Positions 1 through 44,800 of a DNA stretch of 64,000 nucleotides are shown piece after piece. Below the pieces are notes generated by a model that did not search any database, had not been told where the DNA came from, and worked only from the letters and a program-made list of their open reading frames with translations. A program made the position numbers and the translations under genes. Position 1 is the stretch's first letter. Every line of letters begins with the position of its first letter. Location: NCBI GenBank assembly GCA_964016885.1, contig OZ024741.1:127906001-127970000 (forward strand), in the 5' to 3' direction. Origin of the DNA: Eledone cirrhosa. Lineage: Eukaryota.

Positions 1-3000
1 TAACCCAAACTAACCCTAACCCTAACCCTAACACTAACCCTAACCCTAACCCTAACCCTAAAACTAACTTACCCTAGCCCTAACCCTAAAACTAAACCTA
101 ACCCTAACAGTAACTAACCCTAACCTTAACGCTAACCCTAACCCAAACTAACACTAAAGCTAACCCTAACCCTAAGTAACCATAAACGTAACCCTAACTC
201 TAACTAACCGTAACGCTAACCCAACCCCTAACCCTAACTAACACTAACCCTAACCCTAACTAACCCTAACCCTAACCCTATCTCTAACACTAACCCTAAC
301 TAATCATAACCCTAACCCTAACTAACCGTAACCCGAACCCTAACCGGAACTAACTCTAACCCTAACACTGACTAACACTAACCCTAACCCTAACCCTAAC
401 TAAACCTAACCCTAACCGTAACTAACTCTAAACCTAACCCTGACTAACCCTGACTAACCCTGACCCTAACCCTAACCCGAACCCTAACTCTAACTAACCA
501 TAACCCTAACTAGCACTGACCGTAACCCTAACCCTAACCCTAACTAACCCTAACCCTAACCCTAATTAACCCTAGCCCTAACCCTCACTAACACTAACCC
601 TGACCCTAACCCTAACCCTAACCCTAACTAACCCTAACCCAAACCCTAACTAACCCTAACCATAACCCTAACTAGCACTAACCCTAACTCTAACCCTAAC
701 CTTAACCCTAACTAACCCTAACCCTAACCCAAACACCAACCCTTAACCTAACCCTACCTAATCCTAACTCTAACCCTAACCCTAACTAACACTAAACATA
801 ACCCTAACCCTAACCCTAACTAACCCTAACCATAACCCTAATCCTAACCCTCACTAACACTAACCCTAACCCTAACACTAACCTGTAGCTAACGTTAACC
901 CAAACCCTAACTAACCCTAACCCTACCCCTAACTAACCCTAACCTAAAGCTAACCCTAACCCTAACCCTAACCCTAACCCTAACCCTAACCCTAACCCTA
1001 ACCCTAACCCTAACCCTAAACCTAACTAACCCTAACCCTAACCCTAATCCTAACCCTAACCCTAACTAACACTAACCCTAAACTTAACTGTAACTAACCC
1101 TAACCGTAATCTTAACTAACAATAACCATAACCATAACCATAACTATAACCATAACCCTAACCTTAACCCTAACCTTAAACGTAACCTTAACCCTAACCT
1201 TAACTAACCCTAATCCTAACCCTAACCCTAAACATAACCTTAACTAACCGTAACCCAAACCTTAACTAACCCTAACCCTAACCCTAACCCTAACCCTAAC
1301 CTTACCTAACCCAAACCCTAAACCTAACCCTAACTGTAACTAACCCTAAATCTAACTGATACTAACCCTAACCCTAAACATAAATAACACTAACCCTAGC
1401 CTTAAGTCTAAGCCTAACAAACCCTAACCCTAACTAAGACTAACCCTAACCCTAACCCTAACCCTAACTAACACTAACCCTAACCCTAACTCTAACCCTA
1501 ACCTTAACTAACCCTAACCTTAACCCAAACCCTAACTCTAACTAAACCTAACCCTAACCCTAACCCTAATTAACCCTAACCCTAACACTAAACCTTACTA
1601 ACCCTAACCAGAACCCTAACCCTAACCCTAACTAACACTAACCCTAACCCTAACCCTAACCTGTAACTAACCCTAACCCTAACCTTAACTAACACTAACC
1701 CTAACCCTAACCAGCCCTAGCCCTAACCCTAAAACTAAAACTAAACCTAACGCTAACCCTGCCCTAACTAACCCTAACCGTGTAGCCTAATCATAACCCT
1801 AACTAACACAAAACCTAACACTAACCCTAACAGTAACTAACCCTAACGTTAACCCTAACCCTAACCTCAACCCTAACCCTAACCTTAAGCCTAACCCTAA
1901 CCTTAACACTAACCCAAACTAACAATAACCCTAACCCTAACCCTAACCAACCGTAACGCTAACTATACCCCTAACCCTAACTAACACTAACCCTAACCCT
2001 ATCTCTAACCCTAACTCTAACTAATCATAAGCCTAACCCTAACTAACATTAAACCGAACCCTAACCCTAATACTAACTAACACTAACCCTAACCCTGACC
2101 CTAACTAACCCTAACACTAAACCTAACCCTAACCCTGACTAACACTAACCCTACCCGTAACTAACTCTAACCCTAACCCTGACTAACACTAACCCTAACC
2201 CTAACCTTAACTAACACTAACCCTAACCCTAACCCTAACCCTAACTCTAACCCTAACAACACCTAACCCTAACCGTAACTAACTCTAACCCTAACCCTGA
2301 CTAACCCTAACCGAAACCCTAACGCTAACCCTAACCCTAACTAACCCTAACCCTAACTAGCACTAACCCTAAACCTAACCCTAACCCTAACCCTAACCCT
2401 AACCCTAACTCTAACCCTAACTAATCATAACCCTAACCCTAACTAACCCTAACCCGAACCCAAACCCTAACCCTAACCCTAACCCTAACCCTAACACTAA
2501 TCCTAACCCTAACCCTAACTAACCATAACCCTAACCGTAACTATCTCTAACCCTAACCATGACTAACACTAACCTTAACACTAACCTTCACTAACACTAA
2601 CCCTAACCCTAACACTAACACAAACCCTAACCCTAACTAAACCTAACCCTAACCGTAACTAACTGTAACACTAACCCTGATTAACCCTGACTAACCCTAA
2701 GCTTTACCCTGACCCTAACTAAACCTAACCCTAACTAGCACTAACCCTAAACCTATCCCTCACCCTAAATAACCCTAACCCTAACTAACACTAAATATAA
2801 CCCTAACCCTACCCCTAAATAACCCTAATCTAAAGCTAACCCTAACCCTAACCCTAACCCTAACCCTAACCCTAACTCTAACCCTAACCCTAAACTAACT
2901 AACCCTAACTAACCCTAAACCAACCCTAACTAACACTAACCCTAACCGTAACTAAACCTAACCCTAACCCTAAACCTAACCCTAACCCTAACCCTAACTA

Positions 3001-6000
3001 ACACTAACCTTAACCCTAGCCCTAACCCTAACTAACCCTAACCCTAACCCTAACCCTAATCCTAACACTAACCCTAACTAACACTAAACCTAAACCTAAC
3101 CCTAACTAACCCTAACCGTAATCTTAACTAACCCTAACCCTAACCCTAACCCTAACCATAACAATAACCCTAACCCTAACCCTAACCTTAACTAACCCTA
3201 ACCCTAACTCTAACCCTAAATCTAAAATTAACTAACCCTAACCCTAACACTAACCTTAACTAACCCTAACCCTAACTCTAACTAACACTAATCCTAACCC
3301 TAACTCTAACCATAACCTTAACTAACCCTAATCCTAATCCAAACCCTAACTCTAACTAACCCTAACCCTAATTAACCCTAACCCTAACCCTAACTAACAC
3401 TAACCCTAACCCTAAACCTAACTAACACTAACCCAAACCCTAACTCTAACTAACACTAACCCTAACCCTAACTAACCCTAACCCAACCCTAACTAACACT
3501 AACCCTAACCGTAACTAAACCTTACCCTAACCCTAACTCTAACCCTAACTAACACTAAACTTAACCCTAACCCTAACCCTAACTAACACTAACCCTATCC
3601 TTAACCCTAAACCTAACTAACCCTAACCCTAACCCTAATCCTAACGCTAACCCTAACTAACACTAACCCTAAACCTAACCCTAATAACCCTAATCGTAAT
3701 CTTAACTAACCCTAACCATAACCATAACTATAACTATAACCATAACCCTAACCCTAACCCTAGCCTTAACCCTAACCTTAACTAACCCTAATCCTAAACC
3801 TAACCCTAAACCTAACCTTAACTAACCCTAACCCAAACCTTAACTAACCCTAACCCTAACCCTAACCCTAACCTTAACTAACCCAAACCCTAACCAAAAC
3901 CCTAACTCTAACAAACCTTAAACCTAACTGACACTAACCCCAACCCTAAACATAACTAACACTAAACCTAGCCTTAACTCTAACCCTAACTAACCCTAAC
4001 CCTAACTAACACTAACCCTAACCCTAACCCTAACTAACACTAACCCTAACCCTAACTCTAACCCTAACCTTAACTAACCCTAACCCTAACCCAAACCCTA
4101 ACTCTAACTAACCCTAACCCTAACTAACCCTAACCGTGACCCTAAACCTAACTAACCCTAACCCTAACTCTAACCCTAACCCTAACCCTAACTAACACTA
4201 ACCCTAACCCTAACCCTAACCTGTAACTAACCCTAACCCTAACCTTAACTAACACTAACACTAACCCTCACCCTAACCCTAAATTACACTAGCCCTAACC
4301 CTAAAACTAAACCTAACGCTAACCCTACCCTAACTAACCCTAACCGTGTACTCTAATCCAAAGCCTAACTAACACAAAACCTAACGCTAACCCTAACAGT
4401 AACTAACACTAACCTTAACCCTACCCTAGCCTTAACCCTAACCTTAATCCTAACCCAAACTAACACAAACCCTAACCCTATCTCTAACCCTAACTCTAAC
4501 TAATCATAACCCTAACCCTAACTAACCCTAACCCGAAACCTAACCCTAATACTAACTAACACTAACCCTAACCCTAACCCTAACTAACCCTAACACTAAC
4601 CCTAACCCTAAACCTAACTAACACTTACCCTAACCCTAACCTTAACTAACCCTAACCCTAACCCAAACCCTAACACTAACTAACCCTAACCCTAACCCTA
4701 ACTAACCCTAACCCAACCCTAACTAACACTAACCCTAACCGTAACTAAACCTTACACTAACCCTAACTCTAACCCTAACTAACACTAACCTTAACCCTAA
4801 CCCTAACCCTAACTAACCCTAACCCTAACCTTAACCCTAACCCTAACTAACACTAACCCTAAACCTAACCCTAACTAACCCTAATCGTAATCTTAACTAA
4901 CCCTAACCCTAACCATAACCATAACTATAACCATAACCCTAACCCTAACCCTAACCTTCACCCTAACCTTAACTAACCCTAACCCTAACCCTAACCCTAA
5001 CCCTAACCCTAACCCTAACCTTAACCCTAAGCTTAACTAACCCTAATCCTAACCCTAACCCTAAACCTAACCTTAACTAACCCTAACCCAAACATTAACT
5101 AACCCTAACCCTAACCCCAACCCTAACCTTAACTAACCCAAACCCTAACCCAAACCCTAACTCTAACTAACCCTAAACCTAACTGACACTAACCCTAACC
5201 CTAAATAACCCTAACCCTAACTAAGACTAACCCTAACCCTAACCCTAACTAACACTAACCATTAACCCTAACTCTAACCCTAACTTTAACTAACCCTAAC
5301 CCTAACCCAAACCCTAACTCTAACTAACCCTAACGCTAACCCTAACCCTAACTAACCCTAACCCTAACCCTAAACCTAATTAACCCTAACCATAACCCTA
5401 ACTAAACACTAACCCTAACCCTAACCCTAACCTGTAACTAACCCTAACCCTAACCTTAACTAACACTAACGCTAACCCTAACCCTAACTAACCCTAGCCC
5501 TAACCCTAACCCTAAACCTAACCTGTAACTAACGTTAACCTAAACCCTAACTAACCCTAACCGTTTACCCTAACACTAACCCTAACTTACCCTAGCGCTA
5601 ACCCTAAAACTAAATCTAACCCTAACAGTAACTAACCCTAAACTTAACGCTAACCGTAACCCAAACTAACACTAAAGCTAACCCTAACCCTAACCCTATG
5701 TAAACCTAAACGTAACCCTAACCCTAACTAACCGTAACGCTAACCCTACCCCTAACCCTAACTAACACTAACCCTAACTCTAACTCTAACCCTAACCCTA
5801 ACCCTAACTAACCCTAACTCGAACCCTAACCCTAACCCTAACTAACACTAACCCTAACACTAACCCTAACTAACCCTAACACTAGCCATAACCCTAACCC
5901 TAACTAACACTAACCCTAACCGTAACTAACTGTAACCCTAACCCTGACTAACACTAACCCTAACCCTAACCTTAACTAACACTAACCCTAACCCTAACCC

Positions 6001-9000
6001 TAACACTAACCCTAACCCTAACTAAACCTAACCCTAACCGTAACTAACTCTAACCCTAACCCTGACTAACCCTGACCCTAACCCTAACCCGAACCCTAAT
6101 CCTAACTAACCATAACCCTAACTAGCACTAACCCTAACACTAACTAACACTAACCCTAACCCTAACTAACACTAATCCGGACACTAACCCTAACGCTAAC
6201 CCTAACTAACCGTAACCCTAATCCTAACTTATCCTAACCCTAACCCTAACTAGCACTAACCCTAACCATAACCCTAACCCTAACCCTAACCTCTACTAAC
6301 CCTAACCCTAACCTTAACTAACACTAAACATAACCCTAACACTAACCCTAACTAAACCTAACCATAATCCTAAACCTAACCCTAACTAACACTAACCCTA
6401 ACCCTAACCTGTAACTAACCATAAACCTAACCCTTACTAACACTAACCCTAACCCTAACCATAACCCTAACTAACCCTAGCCCTAACCCTAAAACTAAAC
6501 CTAACGCTAACCCTACCCTAACTAACCCTAACCGTGTACCCTAATCCTAACCCTAACTAACACAAAACCTAACCCTAACAGTAACTAACCTTAACCCTAA
6601 CCCTAAGCCTAACCCTAAGTAACCGTAACCGTAACCCTAACCCTAACTAACCGTAACGCTAACCCTACCCCTAACCCTAACTAACACTAAGCCTAACCCT
6701 ATCTCTAACCTTAACCCTAACTAATCATAACCCTAGCCTAACTAACCCTAACCCGAACCCTAACCCTAATCCTAACTAATACTAACCCTAACCCTAACCC
6801 TAACTAAGCCTAACACTAAACCTAACCCTAACCCTAACCCTAATTAACACTAAACTTAACCGTAACTAACTCTAACCCTAACCTGACTAACATTAACCCT
6901 AACCCTAACCCTAACCCTAACACTAACTAACCCTAACCCAACCCTAACTAATACTAACCCTAAACGTAACTAAACCTTACCCTAACCCTAACTCTAACCC
7001 TAACTAACACTAACCTTAACCCTAAACCTAACTAACCCTAACCCTAACCCTAATCCTAACCCTAACCCTAACTAACACTAACCCTAAACTTAACCCTTAC
7101 TAACCCTAACCGTAATCTTAACTAACCCTAACCATAATCATAACCATAATTATAACCATAACCCTAACCTTAACCCTAACCTTAACCCTAACCTTAACCC
7201 TAACCTTAACTAACCCTAATCCTAACCCTAACCCTAAACATAACCTTAACTAACCCTAACCCAAACCTTAACTAACCCTAACCCTAACCCTAACCCTAAC
7301 CTTACCTAACCCAAACCCTAACCCAAACCCTAACTGTAACTAACCCTAAACCTAACTGACACTAATCCAAACCCTAAACATAAATAACACTAACCCTAGC
7401 CTTAAGTCTAACCCTAACTAACCCTAACCCTAACTAAGACTAACCCTAACCCTAACTAACACTAACCCTAACCCTAACTCTAACACTAACCTTAACTAAC
7501 CCTAACCTTAACCCAAACCCTAACTCTAACTAACCCTAACCCTAACCCCAACCCTAATTAACCCTAACCATAACCCTAACCCTAACCCAAACTAACACTA
7601 ACGCTAACCCTCAACCTAACCCTAACCCTAACCCTAAACCTAACCCTAACTCTAACCCTAACTAATCATAACCGTAACCCTAACTAACCCTAACCCGAAC
7701 CCAAACCCTAACCCTAACCCTAACCCTAACACTAATCCTAACGATAACCCTAACTAACCTTAACCCTAACCGTAACTATCTCTAACCCTAACCATGACTA
7801 ACACTAACCTTAGCACTAACCTTCACTAACACTAAACCTAACCCTAACCGTAACTAACTGTAACACTAACCCTGACTAACCCTGATTAACCCTAACCTTT
7901 ACCCTAACCCTAACTAACCCTAACCCTAACTAGCACTAACCCTAAACCTAACCCTCACCCTAAATAACCCTAACCCTAACTAACACTAAATATAACCCTA
8001 AACCTACCCCTAAATAACCCTAATCTAAAGCTAACCCTAACCCTAACCCTAACCCTAACCCTAACCCTAACTCTAACACTAACCCTAAACAAACTAACCC
8101 TAACTAACCCTAAACCAACGCTAACTAACACTAACCCTAACCGTAACTAAACCTATCCCTAACCCTAACCCTAACCCTAACTAACACTAACCTTAACCCT
8201 AGCCCTAACCCTAACTAACCCTAACCCTAACCCTAACCCTAATCCTAACCCTAACCCTAACTAACACTAACCCTAAACATAACCCTAACCGTAATCTTAA
8301 CTAACCCTAACCCTAACCCTAACCCTAACCCTAACCCTAACTCTAACCCTAAACCTAAAATTAACTAACCCTAACCCTAACCCTAACACTAACCTTAACT
8401 AACCCTAATCCTAACCCAAACCCTAACTCTAACTAACCCTAACCCTAATTAACCCTAACCCTAACCCTAACTAACACTAACCCTAACCCTAAACCTAACT
8501 AACACTAACCCTAACCCTAACCTTAACTAACCCTAACCCTAACCCAAACCCTAACTCTAACTAACCCTAACCCTAAGGAACCCTAACCCAACCCTAACTC
8601 ACACTAACCCTAACCGTAACTAAACCTTACCCTAACCCTAACTCTAACCCTAACTAACACTAACCTTAACCCTAACCCTAACCCTAACTAACACTAACCC
8701 TATCCTTAACCCTAAACCTAACTAACCCTAACCCTAACCCTAATCCTAACCCTAACCCTAACTAACACTAACCCTAAACCTTAACTAACCCTAACCCTAA
8801 CCCTAACCCTAACCCTAACCTTAACTAACCCAAACCCTAACCCAAACCCTAACTCTAACTAACCTTAAACCTAACCGTAATCTTAACTAACCCTAACCAT
8901 AACCATAACTATAACTATAACCATAATCCTAACCCTAACCCTAACTTTAACCCTAACCTTAACTAACCCTAATCCTAACCCTAACCCTAAACCTAACATT

Positions 9001-12000
9001 AACTAACCCTAACCCAAACCTTAACTAACCCTAACCCTAACCCTAACCCTAACCTTAACTAACCCAAACCCTAACTAACACTAACACTAACCCTAACTCT
9101 AACCCTAACTAACACTAACCCTAACCCTAACTCTAACCCTAACCTTAACTAACCCTAACCCTAAACATAACTAACACTAAACCCAGCCTTAACTCTAACC
9201 CTAACTAACCCTAACCCTAACTAACACTAACCCTAACCCTAACCCTAACTAACACTAACCCTAACCCTAACTCTAACCCTAACCTTAACTAACCCTAACC
9301 CTAACCCAAACCCTAACTCTAACTAACCCTAACCCTAACCCTAAACCTAACTAACCCTAACCCTGACCCTAAACCGAACTAACCCTAACCCTAACCCTAA
9401 CTAACACTAACCCTAACCCTAACCCTAACCTGTAACTAACCCTAACCCTAACCTTAACTAACACTAACCCTAACCCTAAACTTAACCCTAAATTACACTA
9501 GCCCTAACCCTAAAACTAACCCTAACCGTGTACTCTAATCCTAACCCTAACTAACACAAAACCTAACCCTAAACCTAACCCTAACAGTAACTAACCCTAA
9601 CCTTAACCCTAACCCTAGCCTTAACCCTAACCCTAACCTTAACCCGAACCCAAACTAACACTAACCCTAACCCTATCTCTAACCCTAACTCTAACTAATC
9701 ATAACCCTAACCTTAACTAACCCTAACCCGAAACCTAACCCTAGTACTAACACTAACCCTAACCCTAACTAACCCTAACACTAACCCTAACCCTAAACCT
9801 AACTAACACTAACCCTAACCCTAACCTTAACTAACCCTAACCCTAACCCAAACCCTAACTCTAACTAACCCTAACCCTAACCCTAACTAACCCTAACCCA
9901 ACCCTAACTAACACTAACCCTAACCGTAACTAAACCTTACCCTAACCCTAACTCTAACCCTAACTAACACTAACCTTAACCCTAACCCTAACCCTAACTA
10001 ACCCTAACCCTAACCTTAACCCTGACCCTAACTAACACTAACCCTAAATCTAACCCTAACTAACCCTAACCGTAATCTTAACTAACCCTAACCCTAACCA
10101 TAACCATAATTATAACCATAACCCTAACCCTAACCCAAACCTTAACCCTAACCTTAACTAACCCTAATCCTAACCCTAACCCTAAACCTAACCTTAACTA
10201 ACCCTAACCCAAACATTAACTAACCCTAACACTAACCCCAACCCTAACCTTAACTAACCCAAACCCTAACCCAAACCCTAACTCTAACTAACACTAAACC
10301 TAACTGACACTAACCCCAACCCTAACCTTAACTAACCCTAACCCTAACCCTAACCCAAACCCTAACTCTAACTAACCCTAACCCTAACCCAAACTAACGC
10401 TAACCGTGACCCTAAACCTAACTAACCCTAACACTAACCCTAACCCTAACCCTAACCGGCAACTAACCCTAACCCTAACCTTAACTAACACTAACCCTAA
10501 CCCTAAACCTAACCCTATATTACACTAGCCCTAACCCTAAAACTAAACCTAACGCTAACCCTACCCTAACTAACCCTAACCGTGTACTCTAATCCTTACC
10601 CTAACTAACACAAAACCTAACCCTAAACCTAACCCTAACAGTAACTAACCCTAACCTTAACCCTAACCCTAGCCTTAACCATAACCCTAACCTTAACCCT
10701 AACCCAAACTAACACTAACCCTAACCCTATCTCTAACCCTAACTCTAACTAATCATAACCCTAACCCAAACTAACCCTAACCCGAAACCTAACCCTAATA
10801 CTAACTAACACTAACCCTAACCCTAAGCCTAACTAACCCTAACACTAACCCTAACCCTAAACCTAACTAACACTAACCCTAACCCTAACCTTAACTAACC
10901 CTAAACCTAACCCAAACCCTAACTCTAACTAACCCTAACCCTAACCCTAACTAACCCTAACCCCACCCTAACTAACACTAACCCTAACCGTAACTAAACC
11001 TTACCCTAACCCTAACTCTAACCCTAACAAACACTAACCTTAACCCTAACCCTAACCGTTAACTAACCCTAACCCTAACCTTAACCCTAACCCTAACTAA
11101 CACTAACCCTAAATCTAACCCTAACTAACCCTAACCGTAATCTTAACTAACCATAACCCTAACCATAACCATAACAATAACCATAACCCTAAACCTAACC
11201 CAAACCTTAACACTATCCTTAACTAACCCTAATCCTAACCCTAACCCTAAACCTTACCTTAACTAAACCTAACCCAAACATTAACTAACCCTAACCCTAA
11301 CCCCAACCCTAAACTTAACTAACCCAAACCCTAACCCAAACCCTAACTCTAACTAACCCTAAACCTAACTGACACTAACCCTAAACCTAACTCTAACTAA
11401 CCCTAACCCTAACTAAGACTAACCCTAACCCTAACCCTAACTAACACTAACCATTAAACCTAACTCTAACCCTGACTTTAACTAACCCTAACCCTAACCC
11501 AAACCCTAACTCTAACTAACCCTAACGCTAACCCTAACCCTAACTAACCCTAACCCTAACCCTAAACCTAACTAACCATAACCCTAACCCTAACCCTAAC
11601 TAACACTAACCCTAACCCTAACCCTAACCTGTAACTAACCCTAACCCTAACCCTAACTAACACTAACCCTAACCCAAACCCTAACTCTAACTAACCCTAA
11701 CGCTAACCCTAACCCTAACTAACCCTAACCCTAACCCTAAACCTAACTAACCATAACCCTAACCCTAAGCCTAACTAACACTAACCTTAACCCTAACCCT
11801 AACCCTAACTAACACTAACCCTATCCTTAACCCTAAACCTAACTAACCCTAACCCTAACCCTAATCCTAATCCTAACCCTAACTAACACTAACCCTAAAC
11901 CTTAACTAACCCTAACCCTAACCCTAACCCTAACCCTAACCCTAACCTTAACTAACCCAAACCCTAACCCAAACCCTAACCCAAACCCTAACTCTAACTA

Positions 12001-15000
12001 ACCTTAAACCTAACCGTAATCTTAACTAACCCTAACCATAACCATAACTATAACTATAACCATAATCCTAACCCTAACCCTAACCTTAACCCTAACCTTA
12101 ACTAACCCTAATCCTAACCCTAACCCTAAACCTAACATTAACTAACCCTAACCCAAACCTTAACTAACCCTAACCCTAACCCTAACCCTAACCTTAACTA
12201 ACCCAAACCCTAACTAACACTAACACTAACCCTAACTCTAACCCTAACTAACACTAACCCTAACCCTAACTCTAACCCTAACCTTAACTAACCCTAACCC
12301 TAAACATAACTAACACTAAACCCAGCCTTAACTCTAACCCTAACTAACCCTAACCCTAACTAACACTAACCCTAACCCTAACCCTAACCCTAACTAACAC
12401 TAACCCTAACCCTAACTCTAACCCTAACCTTAACTAACCCTAACCCTAACCCAAACCCTAACTCTAACTAACCCTAACCCTAACCCTAAACCTAACTAAC
12501 CCTAACCCTGACCCTAAACCGAACTAACCCTAACCCTAACCCTAACCCAAACCCTAACTCTAACTAACCCTAACCCTAACCCAAACTAACGCTAACCGTG
12601 ACCCTAAACCTAACTAACCCTAACCCTAACCCTAACCCTAACTAACACTAACCCTAACCCTAACCCTAACCTGCAACTAACCCTAACCCTAACCTTAACT
12701 AACACTAACCCTAACCCTAACCCTATATTACACTAGCCCTAACCCTAAAACTAAACCTAACGCTAACCCTACCCTAACTAACCCTAACCGTGTACTCTAA
12801 TCCTTACCCTAACTAACACAAAACCTAACCCTAAACCTAACCCTAACAGTAACTAACCCTAACCTTAACCCTAACCCTAGCCTTAACCATAACCCTAACC
12901 TTAACCCTAACCCAAACTAACACTAACCCTAACCCTATCTCTAACCCTAACTCTAACTAATCATAACCCTAACCCTAACTAACCCTAACCCGAAACCTAA
13001 CCCTAATACTAACTAACACTAACCCTAACCCTAACCCTAACTAACCCTAACACTAACCCTAACCCTAAACCTAACTAACACTAACTCTAACCCTAACCTT
13101 AACTAACCCTAAACCTAACCCAAACCCTAACTCTAACTAACCCTAACCCTAACCCTAACCTGCAACTAACCCTAACCCTAACCTTAACTAACACTAACCC
13201 TAACCCTAACCCTAACCCTATATTACACTAGCCCTAACCCTAAAACTAAACCTAACGCTAACCCTACCCTAACTAACCCTAACCGTGTACTCTAATCCTT
13301 ACCCTAACTAACACAAAACCTAACCCTAAACCTAACCCTAACAGTAACTAACCCTAACCTTAACCCTAACCCTAGCCTTAACCATAACCCTAACTTTAAC
13401 CCTAACCCAAACTAACACTAACCCTAACCCTATCTCTAACCCTAACTCTAACTAATCATAACCCTAACCCTAACTAACCCAAACCCGAAACCTAGCCCTA
13501 ATACTAACTAACACTAACCCTAACCCTAACCCTAACTAACCCTAACACTAACCCTAACCCTAAACCTAACTAACACTAACCCTAACCCTAACCTTAACTA
13601 ACCCTAAACCTAACCCAAACCCTAACTCTAACTAACCCTAACCCTAACCCTAACCCTAACCCAAACATTAACTAACCCTAACCCTAACCCCAACCCTAAC
13701 CTTAACTAACCCAAACCCTAACCCAAACCCTAACTCTAACTAACCCTAACCCTAACTAACACTAACCCTAACCCTAACCCTAACTAACACTAACCATTAA
13801 ACCTAACTCTAACCCTGACTTTAACTAACCCTAACCCTAACCCAAACCCTAACTCTAACTAACCCTAACGCTAACCCTAACCCTAACTAACCCTAACCCT
13901 AACCCTAAACCTAACTAACCATAACCCTAACCCTAACCCTAACTAACACTAACCCTAACCCTAACCCTAACCTGTAACTAACCCTAACCCTAACCTTAAC
14001 TAACACTAACGCTAACCTTAACCCTGACTTTAACTAACCCTAACCCTAACCCAAACCCTAACTCTAACTAACCCTAACGCTAACCCTAACCCTAACTAAC
14101 CCTAACCCTAACCCTAAACCTAACTAACCATAACCCTAACCCTAAGCCTAACTAACACTAACCTTAACCCTAACCCTAACCCTAACTAACACTAACCCTA
14201 TCCTTAACCCTAAACCTAACTAACCCTAACCCTAACCCTAATCCTAACCCTAACCCTAACTAACACTAACCCTAAACCTTAACTAACCCTAACCCTAACC
14301 CTAACCCTAACCTTAAACCTAACCGTAATCTTAACTAACCCTAACCATAACCATAACTATAACTATAACCATAATCCTAACCCTAACCCTAACCTTAACC
14401 CTAACCTTAACTAACCCTAATCCTAACCCTAACCCTAAACCTAACATTAACTAACCCTAACCCAAACCTTAACTAACCCTAACCCTAACCCTAACCCTAA
14501 CCTTAACTAACCCAAACCCTAACTAACACTAACCCTAACCCTAACTCTAACCCTAACCTTAACTAACCCTAACCCTAAACATAACTAACACTAAACCCAG
14601 CCTTAACTCTAACCCTAACTAACCCTAACCCTAACTAACACTAACCCTAACCCTAACCCTAACCCTAACTAACACTAACCCTAACCCTAACTCTAACCCT
14701 AACCTTAACTAACCCTAACCCTAACCCAAACCCTAACTCTAACTAACCCTAACCCTAACCCTAAACCTAACTAACCCTAACCCTGACCCTAAACCGAACT
14801 AACCCTAACCTTAACCCTAACCCTAACCCTAAGCCTAACTAACCCTAACCCTAACCCTAACCCTAATCTGCAACTAACCCTAACCCTAACCTTAACTAAC
14901 ACTAACCCTAACCCTAACCCTATATTACACTAACCCCAACCCTAACCTTAACTAACCCTAACCCTAACCCTAACCCAAACCCTAACTCTAACTAACCCTA

Positions 15001-18000
15001 ACCCTAACCCAAACTAACGCTAACCGTGACCCTAAACCTAACTAACCCTAACCCTAACCCTAACCCTAACCCTAACCCTAACCCTAACTAACACTAACCC
15101 TAACCCTAACCCTAACCTGCAACTAACCCTAACCCTAACCTTAACTAACTTAACCCTAACCCTAACCCTATATTACACTAGCCCTAACCCTAAAACTAAA
15201 CCTAACGCTAACCCTACCCTAACTAACCCTAACCGTGTACTCTAATCCTTACCCTAACTAACACAAAACCTAACCCTAAACCTAACCCTAACAGTAACTA
15301 ACCCTAACCTTAACCCTAACCCTAGCCTTAACCATAACCCTAACCTTAACCCTAACCCAAACTAACACTAACCCTAACCCTATCTCTAACCCTAACTCTA
15401 ACTAATCATAACCCTAACCCTAACCCTATATTACACTAGCCCTAACCCTAAAACTAAACCTAACGCTAACCCTACCCTAACTAACCCTAACCGTGTACTC
15501 TAATCCTTACCCTAACTAACACAAAACCTAACCCTAAACCTAACCCTAACAGTAACTAACCCTAACCTTAACCCTAACCCTAGCCTTAACCATAACCCTA
15601 ACCTTAACCCTAACCCAAACTAACACTAACCCTAACCCTATCTCTAACCCTAACTCTAACTAATCATAACCCTAACCCTAACTAACCCTAACCCGAAACC
15701 TAACCCTAATACTAACTAACACTAACCCTAACCCTAACCCTAACTAACCCTAACACTAACCCTAACCCTAAACCTAACTAACACTAACCCTAACCCTAAC
15801 CTTAACTAACCCTAAACCTAACCCAAACCCTAACTCTAACTAACCCTAACCCTAACCCTAACCCTAACCCAAACATTAACTAACCCTAACCCTAACCCCA
15901 ACCCTAACCTTAACTAACCCAAACCCTAACCCAAACCCTAACTCTAACTAACCCTAACCCTAACTAAGACTAACCCTAACCCTAACCCTAACTAACACTA
16001 ACCATTAAACCTAACTCTAACCCTGACTTTAACTAACCCTAACCCTAACCCAAACCCTAACTCTAACTAACCCTAACGCTAACCCTAACCCTAACTAACC
16101 CAAACCCTAACCCTAAACCTAACTAACCATAACCCTAACCCTAACCCTAACTAACACTAACCCTAACCCTAACCCTAACCTGTAACTAACCCTAACCCTA
16201 ACCTTCACTAACACTAACGCTAACCTTAACCCTGACTTTAACTAACCCTAACCCTAACCCAAACCCTAACTCTAACTAACCCTAACGCTAACCCTAACCC
16301 TAACTAACCCTAACCCTAACCCTAAACCTAACTAACCATAACCCTAACCCTAACCCTAACTAACACTAACCCTAACCCTAACCCTAACCTGTAACTAACC
16401 CTAACCCTAACCCTAACTAACACAAAACCTAACCCTAACCTAACCCTAACAGTAACTAACCCTAACCTTAACACTAACCCTAACCTTAACCCTAACCCTA
16501 ACCTTAACCCTAACCCAAACTAACCCTAACCCTAACCCTAACCCTAACTAACCGTAACGCTAACCCTACCCCTAACCCTAACTAACACTAACGCTAACCC
16601 TATCTCTAACCCTAACTCTAACTAATCATAACCCTAACCCTAACTAACCCTAACCTGAAACCTAACCCTAATACTAACTAACTCTAACCCTAACCCTAAC
16701 CCTAACTAACTCTAACACTAAACCTAACCCTAACTAACCCTAACCCAACCCTAACTAACACTAACCCTAACCGTAACTAAGCCTTACCCTAACCCTAACT
16801 CTAACCCTAACTAACACTAACCTTAAGCCTAACCCTAACCCTAACTAACACTAAACCTATCCTTAACCCTAAACCTAACTAACCCTAACCCTAACCCTAA
16901 TCCTAACCCTAACCCTAACTAACACTAACCCTAAACCTAACCCTAATAAACCTAACCATAATCTTAACTAACCCTAACCATAACCATAACTATAACTATA
17001 ACCATAACCCTAACCCTGACCCTAACCTTAACCCTAACCTTAACTAACCCTAATCCTAACCCTAACCCTAAACCTAACCTTAACTAACCCTAACCCAAAC
17101 CTTAACTAACCTTAAACCTAACTGACACTAACCCTAACCCTAACCTTAACTAACCCAAACCCTAACCCAAACCCTAACTCTAACTAACCTTAAACCTAAC
17201 TGACACTAACCCTAACCCTAAACATAACTAACACTAAACCTAGCCTTAACTCTAACCCTAACTAAACCTAACCCTAACTAACACTAACCCTAACCCTAAC
17301 CCTAACTAACACTAACCCTAACCCTAACTCTAACCCTAACCTTAACTAACCCTAACCCTAACCCAAACCCTAACTCTAACTAACCCTAACCCTAACCCAA
17401 ACTAACGCAAACCGTGACCCTAAACCTAACTAACCCTAACCCTAACCCTAACCCTAACCCTAACTAACACTAACCCTAACCCTAACCCTAACCTGTAACT
17501 AACCCTAACCCAAACCCTAACCCTAAATTACACTAGCCCTAACCCTAAAACTAAACCTAACGCTAACCCTACCCTAACTAACCCTAACCGTGTACTCTAA
17601 TCCTTACCCTAACTAACACAAAACCTAACCCTAAACCTAACCCTAACAGTAACTAACACTAACCTTAACCCTAACCCTAGCCTTAACCCTAACCCTAACC
17701 TTAACCCTAACCCAAACTAACACTAACCCTAACCCTATCTCTAACCCTAACTCTAACTAATCATAACCCTAACCCTAACTAACCCTAACCCGAAACCAAA
17801 TCCTAATACTAACTAACACAAACCCTAACCCTAACCCTAACTAACCCTAACACTAACCCTAAGCCTAAACCAAACTAACACTAACCCTAACCCTAACGTT
17901 AACTAACCCTAACCCTAACCCAAACCCTAACTCTAACTAACCCTAACCCTAACCCTATCTCACCCTAACCCAACCCTAACTAACACTAACCCTAACCGTA

Positions 18001-21000
18001 ACAAAACCTTACCCTAACCCTAACCCTAACCCTAACTAACACTAACCTTAACCCTAACCCTAACCGTTAACTAACCCTAACCCTAACCTTAACCTTAACA
18101 CTAACTAACACTAACACTAAATCTAACCCTAACTAACCCTAACCGTAATCTTAACTAACCCTAACCCTAACCATAACCATAACTATAACCATAACCCTAA
18201 CCCTAACCCAAACCTTAACCCTATCCTTAATTAACCCTAATCCTAACCCTAACCCTAAACCTAACCTTAACTAACCCTAACCCAAACATTAACTAACCCA
18301 AACCCTAACCCAAACCCTAACTCTAACTAACCCTAAACCTAACTGACACTAACCCTAAACCTAACCCTAACTAACCCTAACCCTAACTAAGACTAACCCT
18401 AACCCTAAACCTAACTAACACTAACCATTAACCCTAACTCTAACCCTAACTTTAACTAACCCTAACCCTAACCCAAACCCTAACTCTAACTAACCCTAAC
18501 GCTAACCCTAACCCTCACTAACCCTAACCCGAACCCTAACCCTAAACCTAACTAACCCTAACCATAACCCTAACCCTAACCCTAACTAACACTAACCCTA
18601 ACCCTAACCCTAAGCTGTAACTAACCCTAACCCTAACCTTAACTAACACTAACGCTAACCCTAACCCTAACCCTAACTAACCGTGACGCTAACTCTACCC
18701 CTAACCCTAACTAACACTAACGCTAATCCTATCTCTAACCCTAACTCTAACTAATCATAACCCTAACCCTAACTAACCCTAACCCGAAACCTAACCCTAA
18801 TACTAACTAACACTAACGCTAACCCTAACCCTAACTAACTCTAACACTAAACCTAACCCTAACCCTAACTAACACTAACCCTAACCGTAACTAACTCTAA
18901 CCCTAACCCTGACTAACACTAACCCTAACCCAAAACCTAACCCTAACACTAACCCTAACTACACCTAATCCTAACCGTAACTAAACTCTAACCCTAACCC
19001 TGACTAACTCTAACCGAAACCCTAACCATAACCCTAACCATAACCCTAACCCTAACTAACCCTAACCCTAACTAGCCCTAACCCTAGACCTAACCCTAAC
19101 CCTAACCCTAACCCTAACGCTAACCCTAGCTAATCATAACCCTAACCCTAACTAACCCTAACCCGAACTCTAACCCTAACCCTAACCCTAACCCTAACAT
19201 TAACCCTAACTACACCTAACCCTAACCGTAACTAACTCTAACCCTAACCCTGACTAACCCTAACCGAAACCCTAACCCTAATCCTAACCATAACCCTAAC
19301 CCTAACTAACCCTAACCCTAACTAGCACTAACCCTAATCCTAATCCTAACCCTAACCCTAACCCTAACCCTAACACTAATCCTAACCCTAACCCTAACCC
19401 TAACTAACCCTAACCCTAACCGTAACTATCTCTAACCCTAACCATGACTAACACTAACCTTAACCCTAACCTTCACTAAACCTAACCCTAACCCTAACCC
19501 TAACCCTAACCCTAACCCTAACCCTAACCCTAACCCTAACTCTAACTAATCATAACCCTAACCCTAACTAACCCTAACCCTAACTAAACCTAACCCTAAC
19601 CGTAACTAACTCTAACACTAACCCTGACTAACCCTGACTAACCCTAACCCTTACCCTAACCCTAAAAAACCCTAACCTAAAGCTAAACCTAACCCTAACC
19701 CTAACTAACACTAACCCTAACCCTAACTCTAACCCTTACCTTAACTAACCCTAACCCTAACCCAAACCCTAACCCTAACTAATCATAACCCTAAGCCTAA
19801 CTAACCCTAACCCGAACCCTAACACTAACTCTAACCCGAACCCTAACCCTAACACTAATCCTAACCCTAACCCTAACCCTAACTAACCCTAACCCTAACC
19901 GTAACTATCTCTAACCCTAACCATGACTAACACTAACCTTAAACCTAACCTTCACTAACACTAACCCTAACCCTAACCCTAACACTAAACCTAACCCTAA
20001 CTAAACCTAACCCTAACCGTAACTAACTCTAACACTAACCCTGACTAACCCTGACTAACCCTAACCCTTACCCTAACCCTAACTAACCCTAACCCTAACT
20101 AGCACATACCCTAACCCCAACCCTAACCCTAACTAACCCTAACCCTAACTAACACTAAATATAACCCTAACCCTACCCCTAAATAACCCTAACCTAAAGC
20201 TAACCCTAACCCTAACCCTAACCCTAACCCTAACCCTAACTCTAACACTAACCCTAACCCTAACTAACCCTAAACCAACCTTAACTAACACTAACCCTAA
20301 CCGTAACTAAACCTAACCCTAACCCTAACCCTAACCCTAACTAACACTAACCTTAACCCTAACTCTAACCCTAACTAACCCTAACCCTAACTAACACTAA
20401 CCCTAACCCTAACCCTAACTAACACTAACCCTAACCCTAACCCTAACCTGTAACTAATCCTAACCCTAACCTTAACTAACACTAACCCTAACCCTAACCC
20501 TAACCCTAACTAAACCTAGCCCTAACCCTAAAACTATACCTAACGCTAACCCTACCCTAACTAACCCTAACCGTGTACCCTAATCCTAACCCTAACTAAC
20601 ACAAAACCTAACCCTAAACCTAACCCGAACAGTAACTAACCCTAACCTTAACCCTAACCCTAACCTTAACCCTAACCCAAACTAACCCTAACCCTAACTA
20701 ACCGTAACGCTAACCCTACCCTAACCCTAACTAACACTAACGCTAACCCTATCTCTAACCCTAACTCTAACTAATCATAACCCTAACCCTAACTAACCCT
20801 AACCCGAAACCTAACCCTAATACTAACTAACACTAACCCTAACCCTAACTAACCCTAACCCTAACTAGTACTAACCCTAACCCCAACCCTAACCCTAACT
20901 AACCCTAACCCTAACTAACACTAAATATAACCCTAACCCTACTCCTAAATAACCCTAACCTAAAGCTAACCCTAACTCTAACCCTAACCCTAACTCTAAC

Positions 21001-21950
21001 ACTAACCCTAACGCTAACTAACCCTAAACCAACCCTAACTAACACTAACCCTAACCATAACTAAACCTAACCCTAACCCTAACCCTAACGCTAACCCTAA
21101 CCCTAACTAACACTAACCTTAACCCTAACCCTAACCCTAACTAACCCTAACCCTAACCCTAACCCTAATCCTAACCCTAACCCTAACTAACACTAACCCT
21201 AAACCTAACCCTAACTAACCCTAACCGTAATCTTAACTAACCCTAACCCTAACCCTAACCCTAACCTTAATTAACCCTAACCCTAACTCTAACCCTAAAC
21301 CTAACCTTAACACTAATCCTAACCCTAACTCTAACCTTAACCTTAACTAACCCTAACCCTAACCCAAACCCTAACCCTAACTAACACTAACCCTAACCCT
21401 AAACCTAACTAACCCTAACCCTAATCTTAATTAACCCTAACCCTAACTCTAACCCTAAACCTAACCTTAACTAACCCTAACCCTAACCCTAACCCTAACC
21501 TTAACTAACCCTAACCCTAACCCTAACTAACACTAATCCTAACTCTAACTCTAACCCTAACCTTAACTAACCCTAACCCTAACCCAAACCCTAACTCTAA
21601 CTAACCCTAACGCTAATTAACCCTAACCCTAACCCTAACCCTAACCCTAACCCTAACTAACCCTAACTCTAACCCTAACTAACATTAACCCTAAACCTAA
21701 CTAACACTAACCCTAACCCTAACCCCAACCCTAACTCTAACTAACCCTAACCCTAACCCTAACTAACACTAACCCTAACCCTAAACCTAACTAACCTTAA
21801 CACTAACCCTAACCCTAACCCTAAGCCTAACCCTAACCCGACGCCGACGCCGACTCCGAATCCGACGCCGACCTAACCCTAACCCTAACCCTAACCCAAC
21901 CCAACCCAACCCAACCTCCACCCCAACCCCAACCCTAACGCTAGCCCTAC
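1..21950. repeat. Degenerate telomeric array, (CCCTAA)n/(TTAGGG)n with abundant variant units
   Basis: CCCTAA units are interspersed throughout with CTAA, CACTAA, CCTTAA, CTCTAA, CCGTAA, CCATAA, CCCAAA and CCCTGA. Pure runs are only about 10 units (e.g. ~950-1017, ~19480-19540). C-rich on + at the window start is left-arm telomere polarity. Confidence 0.95.
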
Positions 21951-22235
21951 CGAGGAACCCCATTTCGGTCGCTTGTATTCTTGATCGCATTCTTCCGGTC
22001 GTTACCCAAGATTCATGACCATAGGTAAGGGGTGACACGAATACCGAATTGAAGATAGCGAGTTTGGCTTTTACAACTACCTCCCTTCTGGTTATTGAAT
22101 GCTGAAGCTGGAGCATTACTGTAGCAGCTCCTGCAATTTTTGCACTTAATAATGCCTCATGTCTTCCATCACTCGTGAACACGGCCCCTAGAAACTTGAA
22201 CTTCTCTACCTGGTTTCGATTTAGCACCATTTATC
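21945..22235 (-). mobile_element. RTE-clade LINE (Rex3/Expander-like) reverse transcriptase C-terminal fragment, truncated by telomeric repeats
   Basis: Translation QVEKFKFLGAVFTSDG...KAKLAIFNSVFVSPLTYGHESWVTTGRMRSRIQATEMGFLGR matches the RTE motifs F.YLG, K..IY.S...P.LTYG.E.W and IQA.EM.FLRR. The frame then runs into TTAGGG-derived sequence. Confidence 0.88.
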
Positions 22236-22738
22236 CCACTACAAATACTGGGACATTCGTATAGAGACACCAGGGAAAGATGCTGACCATCGATCGAAGA
22301 TTAAATTAAAATCTTCCAACATAGTTTTATATTGGAACCACATTTTATGTAACCTTTTTGATAATGAATAAAAAAATTAGTAAATCAATACAAAACCAAC
22401 TGGCAGGAGACCCAGGGGTAGACTCCGAGCAAGAGTTTGACATCCATTAACTTTGATTACAATAACCGGTTTATAATAGTATTCATGATTATAATAAGAT
22501 GATTTTATTTTATATACATGTATTAAAAGACAGGAGGAGTGTCTGTTTTAATGATTTAAAGCTCGCTAACACCTCCTCCCTTTGGTAAAAGGAGGGGAAA
22601 TATATTTTAAAATAGCCCAGCGTACAAGAAAACTAAAATTACAACAACATCAGTAACGTCACTAGTAGTATAAACAAACCAAGTACGTCAGCCCTATACC
22701 CCCAGTCAATCTCCACCTGATCCACCACATGTCAGCAA

Positions 22739-22742
<4 letters not shown>

Positions 22743-41804: not shown

Positions 41805-44800
41805 TCACAGCTTCGGGCCTGAGCAGGTCAAAGTCCTACCCTCAACAGCAGCAGTATAGTTAAACACACAGGTGATAGTCCCCCCCTAGTTGTGGCTATA
41901 AGATACAATGTCACATGTGCCGGTCGGTATTACTACAACTAGAGGACATTGCTACTAGATGTCGGTATTACTAAACTGGTGGATGTTGTGCTAGTGGTGG
42001 TGGTGGTAGTGTTGTTGGTGGTGGTGGTAGTGTTGTTGGTGGTGATGGTAGTGTTGTTGGTGGTGGATTTAGTGATAGTGGTGGTGGTAGTGTTGTTGGT
42101 GGTGGATTTAGTGGTAGTGATGGTGGTAGTGTTGTTGGTGGTGGATTAGTGGTAGTGGTGGTGGTGTTGTTGTTGGTGGTGGATTTAGTGGTAGTGGTGG
42201 TGGTGGTGTTGTTGGTGGTGGATTTAGTGGTAGTGATGGTGGTGGTGTTGTTGGTGGTGGATTTAGTGGTAGTGGTGGTGGTGTTGTTGTTGGTGGTGGA
42301 TTTAGTGGTAGTGGTGGTGGTGGTGTTGTTGGTGGTGGATTTAGTGGTAGTGGTGGTGGTGTTGTTGTTGGTGGTGGATTTAGTGGTAGTGATGGTGGTA
42401 GTGTTGTTGGTGGTGGATTTAGTGGTAGTGGTGGTGGTGTTGTTGTTGGTGGTGGATTTAGTGGTAGTGGTGGTGGTGGTGTTGTTGGTGGTGGATTTAG
42501 TGGTAGTGATGGTGGTGGTGTTGTTGGTGGTGGATTTAGTGGTAGTGGTGGTGGTGTTGTTGTTGGTGGTGGATTTAGTGGTAGTGGTGGTGGTGGTGTT
42601 GTTGGTGGTGGATTTAGTGGTAGTGGTGGTGGTGTTGTTGTTGGTGGTGGATTTAGTGGTAGTGGTGGTGGTGGTAGTGTTGTTGGTGGTGGATTTAGTG
42701 GTAGTGGTGGTGGTAGTGTTGTTGGTGGTGGATTTAGTGGTAGTGGTGGTGGTAGTGTTGTTGGTGGTGGATTTAGTGGTAGTGGTGGTGGTGTTGTTGT
42801 TGGTGGTGGATTTAGTGGTAGTGGTGGTGGTGGTGTTGTTGGTGGTGGATTTAGTGGTAGTGGTGGTGTTGTTGTTGTTGGTGGTGGATATAGTGGTAGT
42901 GGTGGTGGTGTTGTTGTTGGTGGTGGATTTAGTGGTAGTGGTGGTGGTGGTGTTGTTGGTGGTGGATTTAGTGGTAGAGGTGGTGTTGTTGTTGGTGGTG
43001 GATTTAGTGGTAGTAGTGGTGGTGGTAGTGTTGTTGGTGGTGGATTTAGTGGTAGTGGTGGTGGTAGTGTTGTTGGTGGTGGATTTAGTGGTAGTGGTGG
43101 TGGTAGTGTTGTTGGTGGTGGATTTAGTGGTAGTGGTGGTGGTGTTGTTGTTGGTGGTGGATTTAGTGGTAGTGGTGGTGGTGGTGTTGTTGGTGGTGGA
43201 TTTAGTGGTAGTGGTGGTGGTGTTGTTGTTGGTGGTGGATTTAGTGGTAGTGGTGGTGGTGGTGTTGTTGGTGGTGGATTTAGTGGTAGTGGTGGTGGTG
43301 TTGTTGTTGGTGGTGGATTTAGTGGTAGTGGTGGTGGTAGTGTTGTTGGTGGTGGATTTAGTGGTAGTGGTGGTGGTGTTGTTGTTGGTGGTGGATTTAG
43401 TGGTAGTGGTGGTGGTGTTGTTGTTGGTGGTGGATTTAGTGGTAGTGGTGGTGGTGGTGTTGTTGGTGGTGGATTTAGTGGTAGTGGTGGTGGTGTTGTT
43501 GTTGGTGGTGGATTTAGTGGTAGTGGTGGTGGTGTTGTTGTTGGTGGTGGATTTAGTGGTAGTGGTGGTGGTGGTGTTGTTGGTGGTGGATTTAGTGGTA
43601 GTGGTGGTGGTGTTGTTGTTGGTGGTGGATTTAGTGGTAGTGGTGGTGGTAGTGTTGTTGGTGGTGGATTTAGTGGTAGTGGTGGTGGTGTTGTTGTTGG
43701 TGGTGGATTTAGTGGTAGTGGTGGTGGTAGTGTTGTTGGTGGTGGATTTAGTGGTAGAGGTGGTGTTGTTGTTGTTGGTGGGGGATTTAGTGGTAGTAGT
43801 GGTGGTAGTGTTGATGGTGGTGGATTTAGTGGTAGTGGTGGTGGTGTTGTTGTTGGTGGTGGATTTAGTGGTAGTGGTGGTGGTAGTGTTGTTGGTGGTG
43901 GATTTAGTGGTAGTGGTGGTGGTGGTGTTGTTGGTGGTGGATTTAGTGGTAGTGGTGGTGGTAGTGTTGTTCGTGGTGGATTTAGTGGTCGTGGTGGTGG
44001 TGGTGGTGTTGGTGGTGGATTTAGTGGTAGTGGTGGTGGTGTTGTTGTTGGTGGTGGATTTAGTGGTAGTGGTGGTGGTAGTGTTGTTGGTGGTAGATTT
44101 AGTGGTAGTGGTGGTGGTGGTGGTGTTGGTGGTGGATTTAGTGGTAGTGGTGGTGGTGTTGTTGTTGGTGGTGGATTTAGTGGTAGTGGTGGTGGTAGTG
44201 TTGTTGGTGGTAGATTTAGTGGTAGTGGTTGTGTTGTTGTTGTTGGTGGTGGATTTAGTGGTAGTGGTGGTGGTGGTGTTGTTGGTGGTGGATTTAGTGG
44301 TAGTGGTGGTGGTGGTGTTGTTGGTGGTGGATTTAGTGGTAGTGGTGGTGTTGTTGTTGGTGGTGGATTTAGTGGTAGTGGTAGTGGTGTTGGTGGTGGA
44401 TTTAGTGGTAGTGGTGGTGGTGTTGTTGTTGGTGGTGGATTTAGTGGTAGTGGTAGTGGTGTTGGTGGTGGATTTAGTGGTAGTGGTGGTGGTGTTGTTG
44501 TTGGTGGTGGATTTAGTGGTAGTGGTGGTGGTGGTAGTGTTGTTGGCGGTGGATTTAGTGGTAGTGGTGGTGGTGGTGGTGTTGGTGGTGGATTTAGTGG
44601 TAGTGGTGGTGGTGGTGGTGTTGGTGGTGGATTTAGTGGTAGTGGTGGTGGTAGTGTTGTTGGCGGTGGATTTAGTGGTAGTGGTGGTGGTGGTGGTGTT
44701 GGTGGTGGATTTAGTGGTAGTGGTGGTGGTGGTGGTGTTGGTGGTGGATTTAGTGGTAGTGGTGGTGGTAGTGTTGTTGGCGGTGGATTTAGTGGTAGTG

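What the first reader, a model, noticed from the sequence alone, without database searches (positions are those of the whole stretch)
21870..22235. Telomeric array begins at a GTAGGG seed inside an RTE reverse-transcriptase ORF: candidate fossil telomere-healing junction
Seen: on the minus strand the RT reads ...GAA ATG GGG TTC CTC GGT AGG GCT AGC GTT AGG GTT..., so element homology stops at GTAGGG (21945-21950) and telomere-type repeats start there with no subtelomeric spacer. Known: RTE/Rex3 proteins continue EM.FLRRVAG..., and telomerase adds repeats de novo at short TAGGG-like seeds. Inference: this chromosome end arose by breakage within a LINE copy followed by telomerase capping, using the element's own Arg-Arg-Val codons as the seed.
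Basis: partly seen in the sequence, partly recalled or inferred. Interest (0 to 1): 0.75.

Follow-up and report, generated by a model that had tools for sequence, protein, structure and literature searches.

The report
Telomere-like array grown inside one LINE
This telomere-like run is not a chromosome end: it is a 30.7-kb internal array lying between the two halves of a single broken retrotransposon copy, likely begun as a short telomere patch at a repaired break and likely enlarged in place, so a large internal telomere block need not mark a chromosome fusion.

Summary
The junction is real; the healed-chromosome-end reading is wrong. The window lies 128 Mb inside a 416-Mb contig. The array is 30.7 kb, one orientation, without assembly gaps, and degenerate (41% perfect units; assembled telomeres 89-99.8%). 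Beyond its far end the same Rex3-like RTE copy resumes: a 62-nt stub, an (AAG)18 tail and the second copy of an 11-bp target-site duplication. The two outer flanks are the halves of one host repeat. So the array sits inside a single LINE insertion and replaces about 161-167 nt of it. The family reads CGAAGGG, not GTAGGG, at the junction; only AGGG is the element's own in-register match (TAGGG in 13 of 1,179 motif-matching copies). Locus-specific variants and near-identical internal duplications indicate growth in place. Best reading: a telomerase-type repair patch (short interstitial telomeric sequence) later amplified into a satellite-sized block; seeding during retrotransposition is not excluded. 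No read data spanned the junctions. The scan noted a similar array inside another element in this genome before (e1-10354291). Known kind, unusually well resolved.

The parts
1..21944 (-). Window part of a 30.7-kb degenerate (TTAGGG)n interstitial array (whole array about G000:C2:127,897,200-127,927,944; G-rich strand = sense strand of the LINE). Beyond its far end, outside the window: 62-nt 3' stub of the same RTE family (C2:127,897,195-127,897,134), (AAG)18 + A8 tail, 4 extra bases, second TSD copy (C2:127,897,067-127,897,057), then the other half of the host repeat.
   Evidence: 41% of 4,753 units perfect, longest pure run 11, 2,244 CCCTAA vs 0 TTAGGG on the + strand, no N
21833..21944 (-). 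Most degenerate edge of the array: TTGGGG/TTGGG units and a patch of GTCGGC-type hexamers
   Evidence: best 150-nt internal match falls to 0.69-0.75 at this edge
21945..21951 (-). Junction. AGGG (21948-21945) is in register with the array and is the family's own sequence; 21951 and 21949 differ from the family (C to G, A to T), so the break point cannot be placed closer than these 7 bases
21945..22212 (-). RTE (Rex3-like) segment downstream of the RT core, 24 of 268 positions differ from the family majority
22213..22295 (-). 5' piece of the same RTE copy (5'-truncated at 22295), joined to the next segment across an internal deletion of about 315 nt at a short microhomology
22296..22301 (-). 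Six extra bases at the 5' junction, the reverse complement of the adjacent target flank (22311-22316)
   Evidence: read from the sequence
22302..22312 (-). First copy of the 11-bp target-site duplication ATTTTAATTTA
   Evidence: single copy in 9 of 9 host-repeat copies aligned (4 exact); no other occurrence in 183 kb of flanking DNA
22313..22389 (-). Upstream half of the AT-rich dispersed host repeat into which the RTE inserted
   Evidence: matches the DNA just upstream of the far-flank homology in 7 of 9 copies by BLAST
22390..22445 (+). Separate 55-nt tailless fragment of the same RTE family, opposite strand, outside the TSD; same family columns as the far stub

Best explanation
A 30.7-kb degenerate telomere-like array lies inside one 5'-truncated RTE LINE copy, between its two halves and within its 11-bp target-site duplication, and it likely began as a short telomerase-type patch at a double-strand break that was rejoined with loss of about 161-167 nt and then likely grew in place. 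Steps: (1) the LINE inserted into an AT-rich host repeat (shown: TSD, tail, contiguous empty copies); (2) a break in the copy exposed a 3' end at or near AGGG, a few TTAGGG units were added in register and the end was joined to the distal piece (inferred); (3) the short tract acquired variants and expanded about a thousand-fold by local duplication (locus-specific variants and layered duplications shown; the process inferred). It is a passive satellite, not a functional telomere.
For: Interior position and no gap. Same family resumes on the far side in the right order and strand; 161 family-majority columns are missing. TSD and host repeat halves; 11 bp starting with A fits RTE TSDs (PMC6007223). 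In-register AGGG in 24 of 29 copies; any telomeric 4-mer precedes only 2.6% of family positions. Deletion (50-52% of loci), in-register microhomology including an AGGG example, and insertion within repeats (16 primate loci) are the described pattern (PMC2246262). Growth in place: a variant 22-mer occurs 75 times in the genome, all in this array; interior duplications reach 99.8% over 455 nt while edges match at 0.8-0.87; the 4-nt unit is 13-15% at both ends and in the middle. TTAGGG tracts from 30 nt to over 60 kb occur elsewhere in the genome in other contexts, while the reversed control pattern has 0 matches against 12,274.
Against: The two bases next to AGGG that differ from the family make the exact break point ambiguous: the array may start at 21951 and the AGGG overlap be partly chance. 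The same microhomology and orientation are expected from a template switch during retrotransposition. The copy has two more internal losses (about 315 nt, and about 105-120 nt before the tail), as a jumping polymerase would leave, though other copies show similar losses. Array units are 6-13% substituted from pure repeat and the LINE part 9% from the family, so the seed cannot be shown to be younger than the insertion. No array-free allele was found, and no contig from 4 runs spanned a junction. Telomerase involvement is inferred from a 4-nt match at one locus.
Confidence: 0.62

Rival explanations
1. The telomeric seed entered during retrotransposition: the RTE reverse transcriptase copied tail and stub, switched to telomeric RNA (or telomerase extended an integration intermediate) and returned to the RTE RNA at AGGG; the tract then grew in place.
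For: One TSD encloses everything; the G-rich strand is the element's sense strand; AGGG would serve the return jump; three internal losses in one short copy; array and LINE have similar divergence.
Against: No telomeric tract followed within 30 nt by an AAG tail in the genome (0 matches); the junction is unique among at least 1,179 copies; none of 7 other internal tracts on C1 abuts this family, nor the edges seen at 3 further loci; premature tails (2 of 29 copies) and large deletions (L002) occur in copies without telomeric DNA.
Confidence: 0.17
2. A piece of existing telomeric or interstitial telomere-like DNA was copied or ligated into a break in the LINE without telomerase, then expanded.
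For: The genome holds many such tracts. The 4-nt TTAG unit also occurs in an array at C2:411.29 Mb (357 of 1,181 units) and a 0.5-kb tract on C6. The junction edge has TTGGGG variants like the proximal edge of a long pure array on C24.
Against: Diagnostic words are confined to this locus (75 of 75; 49 of 60 for a looser 23-mer); the 411.29-Mb array has a different unit; no arms of another element lie at either junction.
Confidence: 0.14
3. The array arose by slippage from the element's own AGGG or GGTTAG, with no telomeric input.
For: The family has AGGG at the junction and one GGTTAG in the lost interval.
Against: The 12 other copies with TAGGG at the junction continue as normal element, 0 TTAGGG in the next 400 nt; the reversed control hexamer forms no tracts; one unit is not a slippage substrate (own knowledge).
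Confidence: 0.05
4. One reading: a healed chromosome end, or a true end mis-joined to other sequence, or a fusion scar.
For: Abrupt start of telomere-type repeats within the frame; long pure internal arrays elsewhere in this assembly could be mis-scaffolded ends; junctions not checked in reads.
Against: A misjoin or fusion would not reunite the matching LINE stub, tail, TSD and host-repeat half; no gap; one orientation only, not head-to-head; array unlike assembled telomeres.
Confidence: 0.02

Closest known systems
Short interstitial telomeric sequences inserted at repaired double-strand breaks (primates, rodents, horse; PMC2246262, PMC7215372)
   Same: Telomeric tract in one orientation inside a repetitive element, deletion at the site, in-register AGGG at the 5' side, mechanism read from the family sequence.
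   Different: Those are short and fairly pure; this is 30.7 kb, degenerate, with higher-order duplications, in an invertebrate-type genome; the deletion (161-167 nt) is not short; no empty allele seen.
Heterochromatic interstitial telomeric blocks (review PMC6410037)
   Same: Large degenerate block enlarged by local amplification.
   Different: Usually centromeric and often read as rearrangement or fusion scars; here the flanks exclude a fusion. Chromatin state and centromere position untested.
Rex3/RTE-clade non-LTR retrotransposons (PMC2887409, PMC6007223)
   Same: Matching motif series after the RT domain, short 3' end with a trinucleotide tail, 5' truncation, 11-bp TSD.
   Different: This copy is a fragment with two internal losses, a premature tail and the array; the described RTE-born microsatellites come from the 3' tail, not from the interior.
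De novo telomere addition (chromosome healing)
   Same: In-register telomeric addition at a short seed (as described in PMC2246262).
   Different: The distal piece was kept and rejoined; no new chromosome end exists.

Membership tests
Healed chromosome end / telomere | Array is terminal, no chromosomal DNA beyond it | tested here: not met
   128 Mb lie beyond it; no N
Healed chromosome end / telomere | Mostly pure TTAGGG like this genome's other ends | tested here: not met
   41% perfect units vs 89-99.8% at the 5 telomeres found among 20 contig starts
Healed chromosome end / telomere | Distal part of the broken sequence is lost | tested here: not met
   Stub, tail, TSD and host half present
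Fusion ITS | Head-to-head blocks, or unrelated flanks from two chromosome ends | tested here: not met
   2,244 CCCTAA vs 0 TTAGGG; flanks are one original locus
Short ITS inserted at a break | Empty form of the site can be inferred | tested here: met
   Family copies are continuous across the site
Short ITS inserted at a break | [quoted passage not shown] | tested here: inconclusive
   AGGG in register in 24 of 29 copies, but two adjacent mismatches blur the break point
Short ITS inserted at a break | End-joining-type change at the site | tested here: met
   161-167 family positions missing
Short ITS inserted at a break | Short tract | tested here: not met
   30.7 kb; fits only as the ancestor of the array
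Short ITS inserted at a break | Inserted after the host element (array-free orthologue or allele) | not testable with these tools
   No relatives held; run contigs did not span the site
Large (heterochromatic) ITS | Large block with signs of amplification | tested here: met
Large (heterochromatic) ITS | Heterochromatic, centromeric or pericentromeric | not testable with these tools
   No chromatin or cytogenetic data
RTE clade (Rex3-like) LINE | Non-LTR RT domain | tested here: met
   PF00078 in 3 of 4 family fragments, 2 above cut-off; best PDB hits R2 retrotransposon proteins; the window fragment itself lies past the domain, no Pfam hit
RTE clade (Rex3-like) LINE | AP endonuclease upstream in one ORF | tested here: inconclusive
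   PF14529 E=0.006, below cut-off, in 1 of 4 fragments; copies are broken
RTE clade (Rex3-like) LINE | Short 3' end with simple-repeat tail; TSD 6-15 bp | tested here: met
   AAG tails in 9 of 23 copies within the stretch read; 11-bp TSD; ranges
RTE clade (Rex3-like) LINE | Groups with Rex3/RTE in an RT tree | not tested
   Only compared by eye with Rex3 proteins shown in supplement 2 of PMC2887409

The most novel reading that the evidence does not exclude
The telomeric seed was written into the LINE while it was being inserted (reverse transcriptase switching onto telomeric RNA, or telomerase seizing the integration intermediate), and this chimeric copy then grew a 30-kb telomere-like satellite that mutagenised its flank (far stub 25-29% diverged vs 9% for the near half): a retrotransposition route to large interstitial telomere blocks with no break of an old chromosome end and no fusion.
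Probability: 0.15. Interest if true: 0.62.

Novelty: new member of a known kind. Interest (0 to 1): 0.3.

Why it matters
A 30-kb internal telomere-like block on a giant chromosome would ordinarily be taken for a fusion scar or an assembly join. Here the nested target-site duplication shows that both flanks were one locus, giving a base-resolved case linking the short break-repair type of interstitial telomeric sequence to the large satellite type. The locus also offers a dated frame (the LINE copy) for measuring how such arrays grow and whether they mutate their flanks. The ingredients are known, so the value is as a clean example and a caution, not a new system.

Tried and rejected
Read support: 7 runs listed, 4 laid twice; three are one sample, hold exact flank pieces (window 22405-22740; L031:573-1044) and may be the assembly's source; no contig spanned a junction or showed an empty allele; holes at depth 3-8 prove nothing. 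Targeted insertion or duplicated junction: rejected (1 of 1 match). Stub from another subfamily: none of 18 best genomic matches shares its run of differences or its early tail. Retroposed telomeric RNA with an AAG tail: 0 matches. Tract carried in by an inverted-repeat element: no arms at either junction, though one short tract on C1 lies in such an element. Hypermutation of the stub: 19 of 66 (15 of 60 without six ambiguous columns) vs 24 of 268, Fisher p=0.0001 and 0.0015; 23 similarity-chosen copies pool 126 of 1,468, maximum 20% (6 of 29 copies dropped as truncated or rearranged), but among 12 motif-chosen copies the 8 that aligned over 54-60 columns without gross misfit or showed low counts ranged 4-22% and 4 were uninterpretable; noticed after the fact, so only suggestive. 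Protein homologue search gave one unnamed hit; the Atlas did not hold the query. The flank test of the C2:411.29-Mb array used wrong edges and is void; only one true edge was read and not tested against the RTE family. Megablast self-comparison was uninformative. Eight paper searches listed no paper on a large telomeric array nested in a LINE's TSD or on cephalopod ITS; subscription papers are not covered.

Full report
Observation. On the minus strand a 96-codon open frame (window 22230-21943) ends ATEMGFLGRA and runs into telomere-type repeats; GTAGGG is at 21950-21945. The family is a non-LTR element: PF00078 in 3 of 4 fragments of other copies, R2 proteins as best solved-structure hits, AAG tails, and a motif series that matches by eye the Rex3 proteins shown in supplement 2 of PMC2887409. 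No tree was built.

Not a chromosome end. The window is G000:C2:127,906,001-127,970,000; C2 is 416,293,306 bases. The array ends about 8.8 kb upstream of the window at C2:127,897,200, with no N in the 150 kb read. It is 30.7 kb, all in one orientation (2,244 CCCTAA, 0 TTAGGG); 41% of 4,753 units are perfect and the longest pure run is 11. Five of 20 contig starts carry telomeres, with 89-99.8% perfect units; neither end of C2 shows one.

One insertion. Past the far end, on the same strand, come a 62-nt stub of the same family, (AAG)18, eight A, four extra bases and ATTTTAATTTA. The stub aligns 161 majority columns after the junction, up to 167 if six ambiguous columns belong to the array. The same 11-mer lies at window 22312-22302, six bases before the element's truncated 5' end, and nowhere else in 183 kb of flank. 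The DNA beyond the far 11-mer is a dispersed repeat whose homology starts at the 11-mer. In the 9 best copies fetched (of 41 other matches listed) the 11-mer site is single (exact in 4), and the DNA before it matches window 22313-22389 in 7 of 9 by BLAST. The 11-mer is thus a target-site duplication, of the size and first base usual for animal RTEs (PMC6007223, passages; PMC2887409, passages), and LINE plus array are one 31.2-kb insertion. This excludes a healed end and a fusion, and makes a misjoin very unlikely.

The seed. The family reads CGAAGGG where the window reads GGTAGGG. AGGG is present in 24 of 29 similarity-chosen copies, TAGGG in 0 of 29. Genome-wide 13 of 1,179 copies with the junction motif have TAGGG; the 12 others continue as ordinary element. 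So the element's own contribution is a 4-nt in-register match; the T is either a private change that improved the seed, array-derived, or a later change. These cannot be told apart. The junction is unique.

Growth in place. A variant 22-mer has 75 matches in the genome, all in this array; a looser 23-mer 49 of 60. Interior duplications reach 99.8% over 455 nt, while the edges match other parts at 0.8-0.87. A 4-nt unit makes up 13-15% of units at both ends and the middle and 0% in 7 samples from 5 other internal tracts and 5 telomeres, though it recurs in two other tracts. Other internal tracts range from 30 nt to 36 kb and over 60 kb, each with its own variants; none of 7 on C1 abuts this family. 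The reversed control pattern has 0 matches against 12,274 (most matches come from a few large arrays), which argues for telomeric origin of such tracts in general.

Mechanism. Shown: insertion, nesting, loss of 161-167 nt, in-register AGGG, locus-specific layered duplications. Inferred: a break, addition of a few repeats by telomerase, rejoining, expansion. In PMC2246262 (passages and section 7) deletions accompany 50-52% of such insertions, four or more in-register bases occur in 17% of rodent loci against 0.39% expected, and 16 primate loci lie inside repeats; PMC7215372 (passages) agrees. PMC6410037 (passages and section 2.2) lists amplification routes and repeat-induced mutagenesis in yeast. 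I give this path 0.62. Seeding during retrotransposition (0.17) predicts the same orientation and microhomology and fits the copy's two other internal losses and the similar divergence of array (6-13% from pure) and element (9%), but no tract followed by an AAG tail exists and such losses occur in other copies. Capture of existing telomeric DNA gets 0.14, slippage from the element 0.05, end or artefact 0.02.

Unexplained. The far stub is 25-29% from the family majority against 9% for the near half (p=0.0015 on the cautious count), with no closer subfamily found; some unrelated copies reach 20-22% there, so flank mutagenesis is only a lead. A 55-nt inverted copy of the same family columns sits 78 nt outside the TSD.

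Limits. No read or contig spanned the junctions, no relative is held, and the taxon label (octopus-like) comes only from earlier unchecked notes. Only search hits of supplements 2 and 7 of PMC2887409 were seen; supplements of the ITS papers, which list deletion sizes, were not read and may bear on whether a 160-nt loss is typical. Eight paper searches (listings and abstracts only, apart from the five papers named) showed no report of a large telomeric array nested in a LINE's TSD. The scan noted a similar array inside an inverted-repeat element on this contig (e1-10354291) and short repair-type tracts in this genome.

Verdict. Observation partly confirmed, interpretation partly supported. A well-resolved new member of a known kind; interest 0.3.

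Noticed in passing
window 22390-22445 (+): Tailless 55-nt piece of the same RTE family, inverted, covering the same columns as the far stub, set in the host repeat with short matches at both ends; could be a templated repair insertion copied from the nearby element.
   Followed up: partly
window 22296-22316: The six extra bases at the 5' junction are the reverse complement of the target flank, forming a small hairpin over the TSD.
   Followed up: partly
window 22212/22213; L002 (G000:C1:299.02 Mb): About 315-nt internal deletion at a short microhomology; another copy has a near-identical but not identical deletion.
   Followed up: partly
L009, L021 and the far stub: AAG tails attached at internal positions of the element, well before the usual 3' end.
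   Followed up: partly
window 41997-54417: 12.4-kb GGT-rich satellite of 39-nt period, 93% matches, 20 kb from the telomere-like array.
   Followed up: no
G000:C2:127,868,000-127,882,000 (L033, L034): Another tandem array of about 14 kb, 15 kb beyond the far end; three large arrays within 100 kb.
   Followed up: no
L142:4370-4580 (G000:C1:75.54 Mb): Short TTAGGG tract at the centre of an inverted-repeat element.
   Followed up: no
G000:C1:208.556-208.592 Mb and C1:217.83 to beyond 217.89 Mb: Two more large degenerate internal telomere-like arrays (36 kb; over 60 kb), each with its own signature variant.
   Followed up: partly
L189 (C17:25.26 Mb), L190 (C24:9.12 Mb): Nearly pure TTAGGG runs of over 4-6 kb deep inside scaffolds; possibly mis-scaffolded true ends or young insertions.
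   Followed up: no
L188 (C9:21.66 Mb): Telomere-like runs interleaved with T-rich blocks over at least 7 kb.
   Followed up: no
L086-L094 and L031:970-1067: The host repeat ends in AAAAGGGTTAA-like termini, resembling TTAA-flanked inverted-repeat elements (label recalled, not tested).
   Followed up: no
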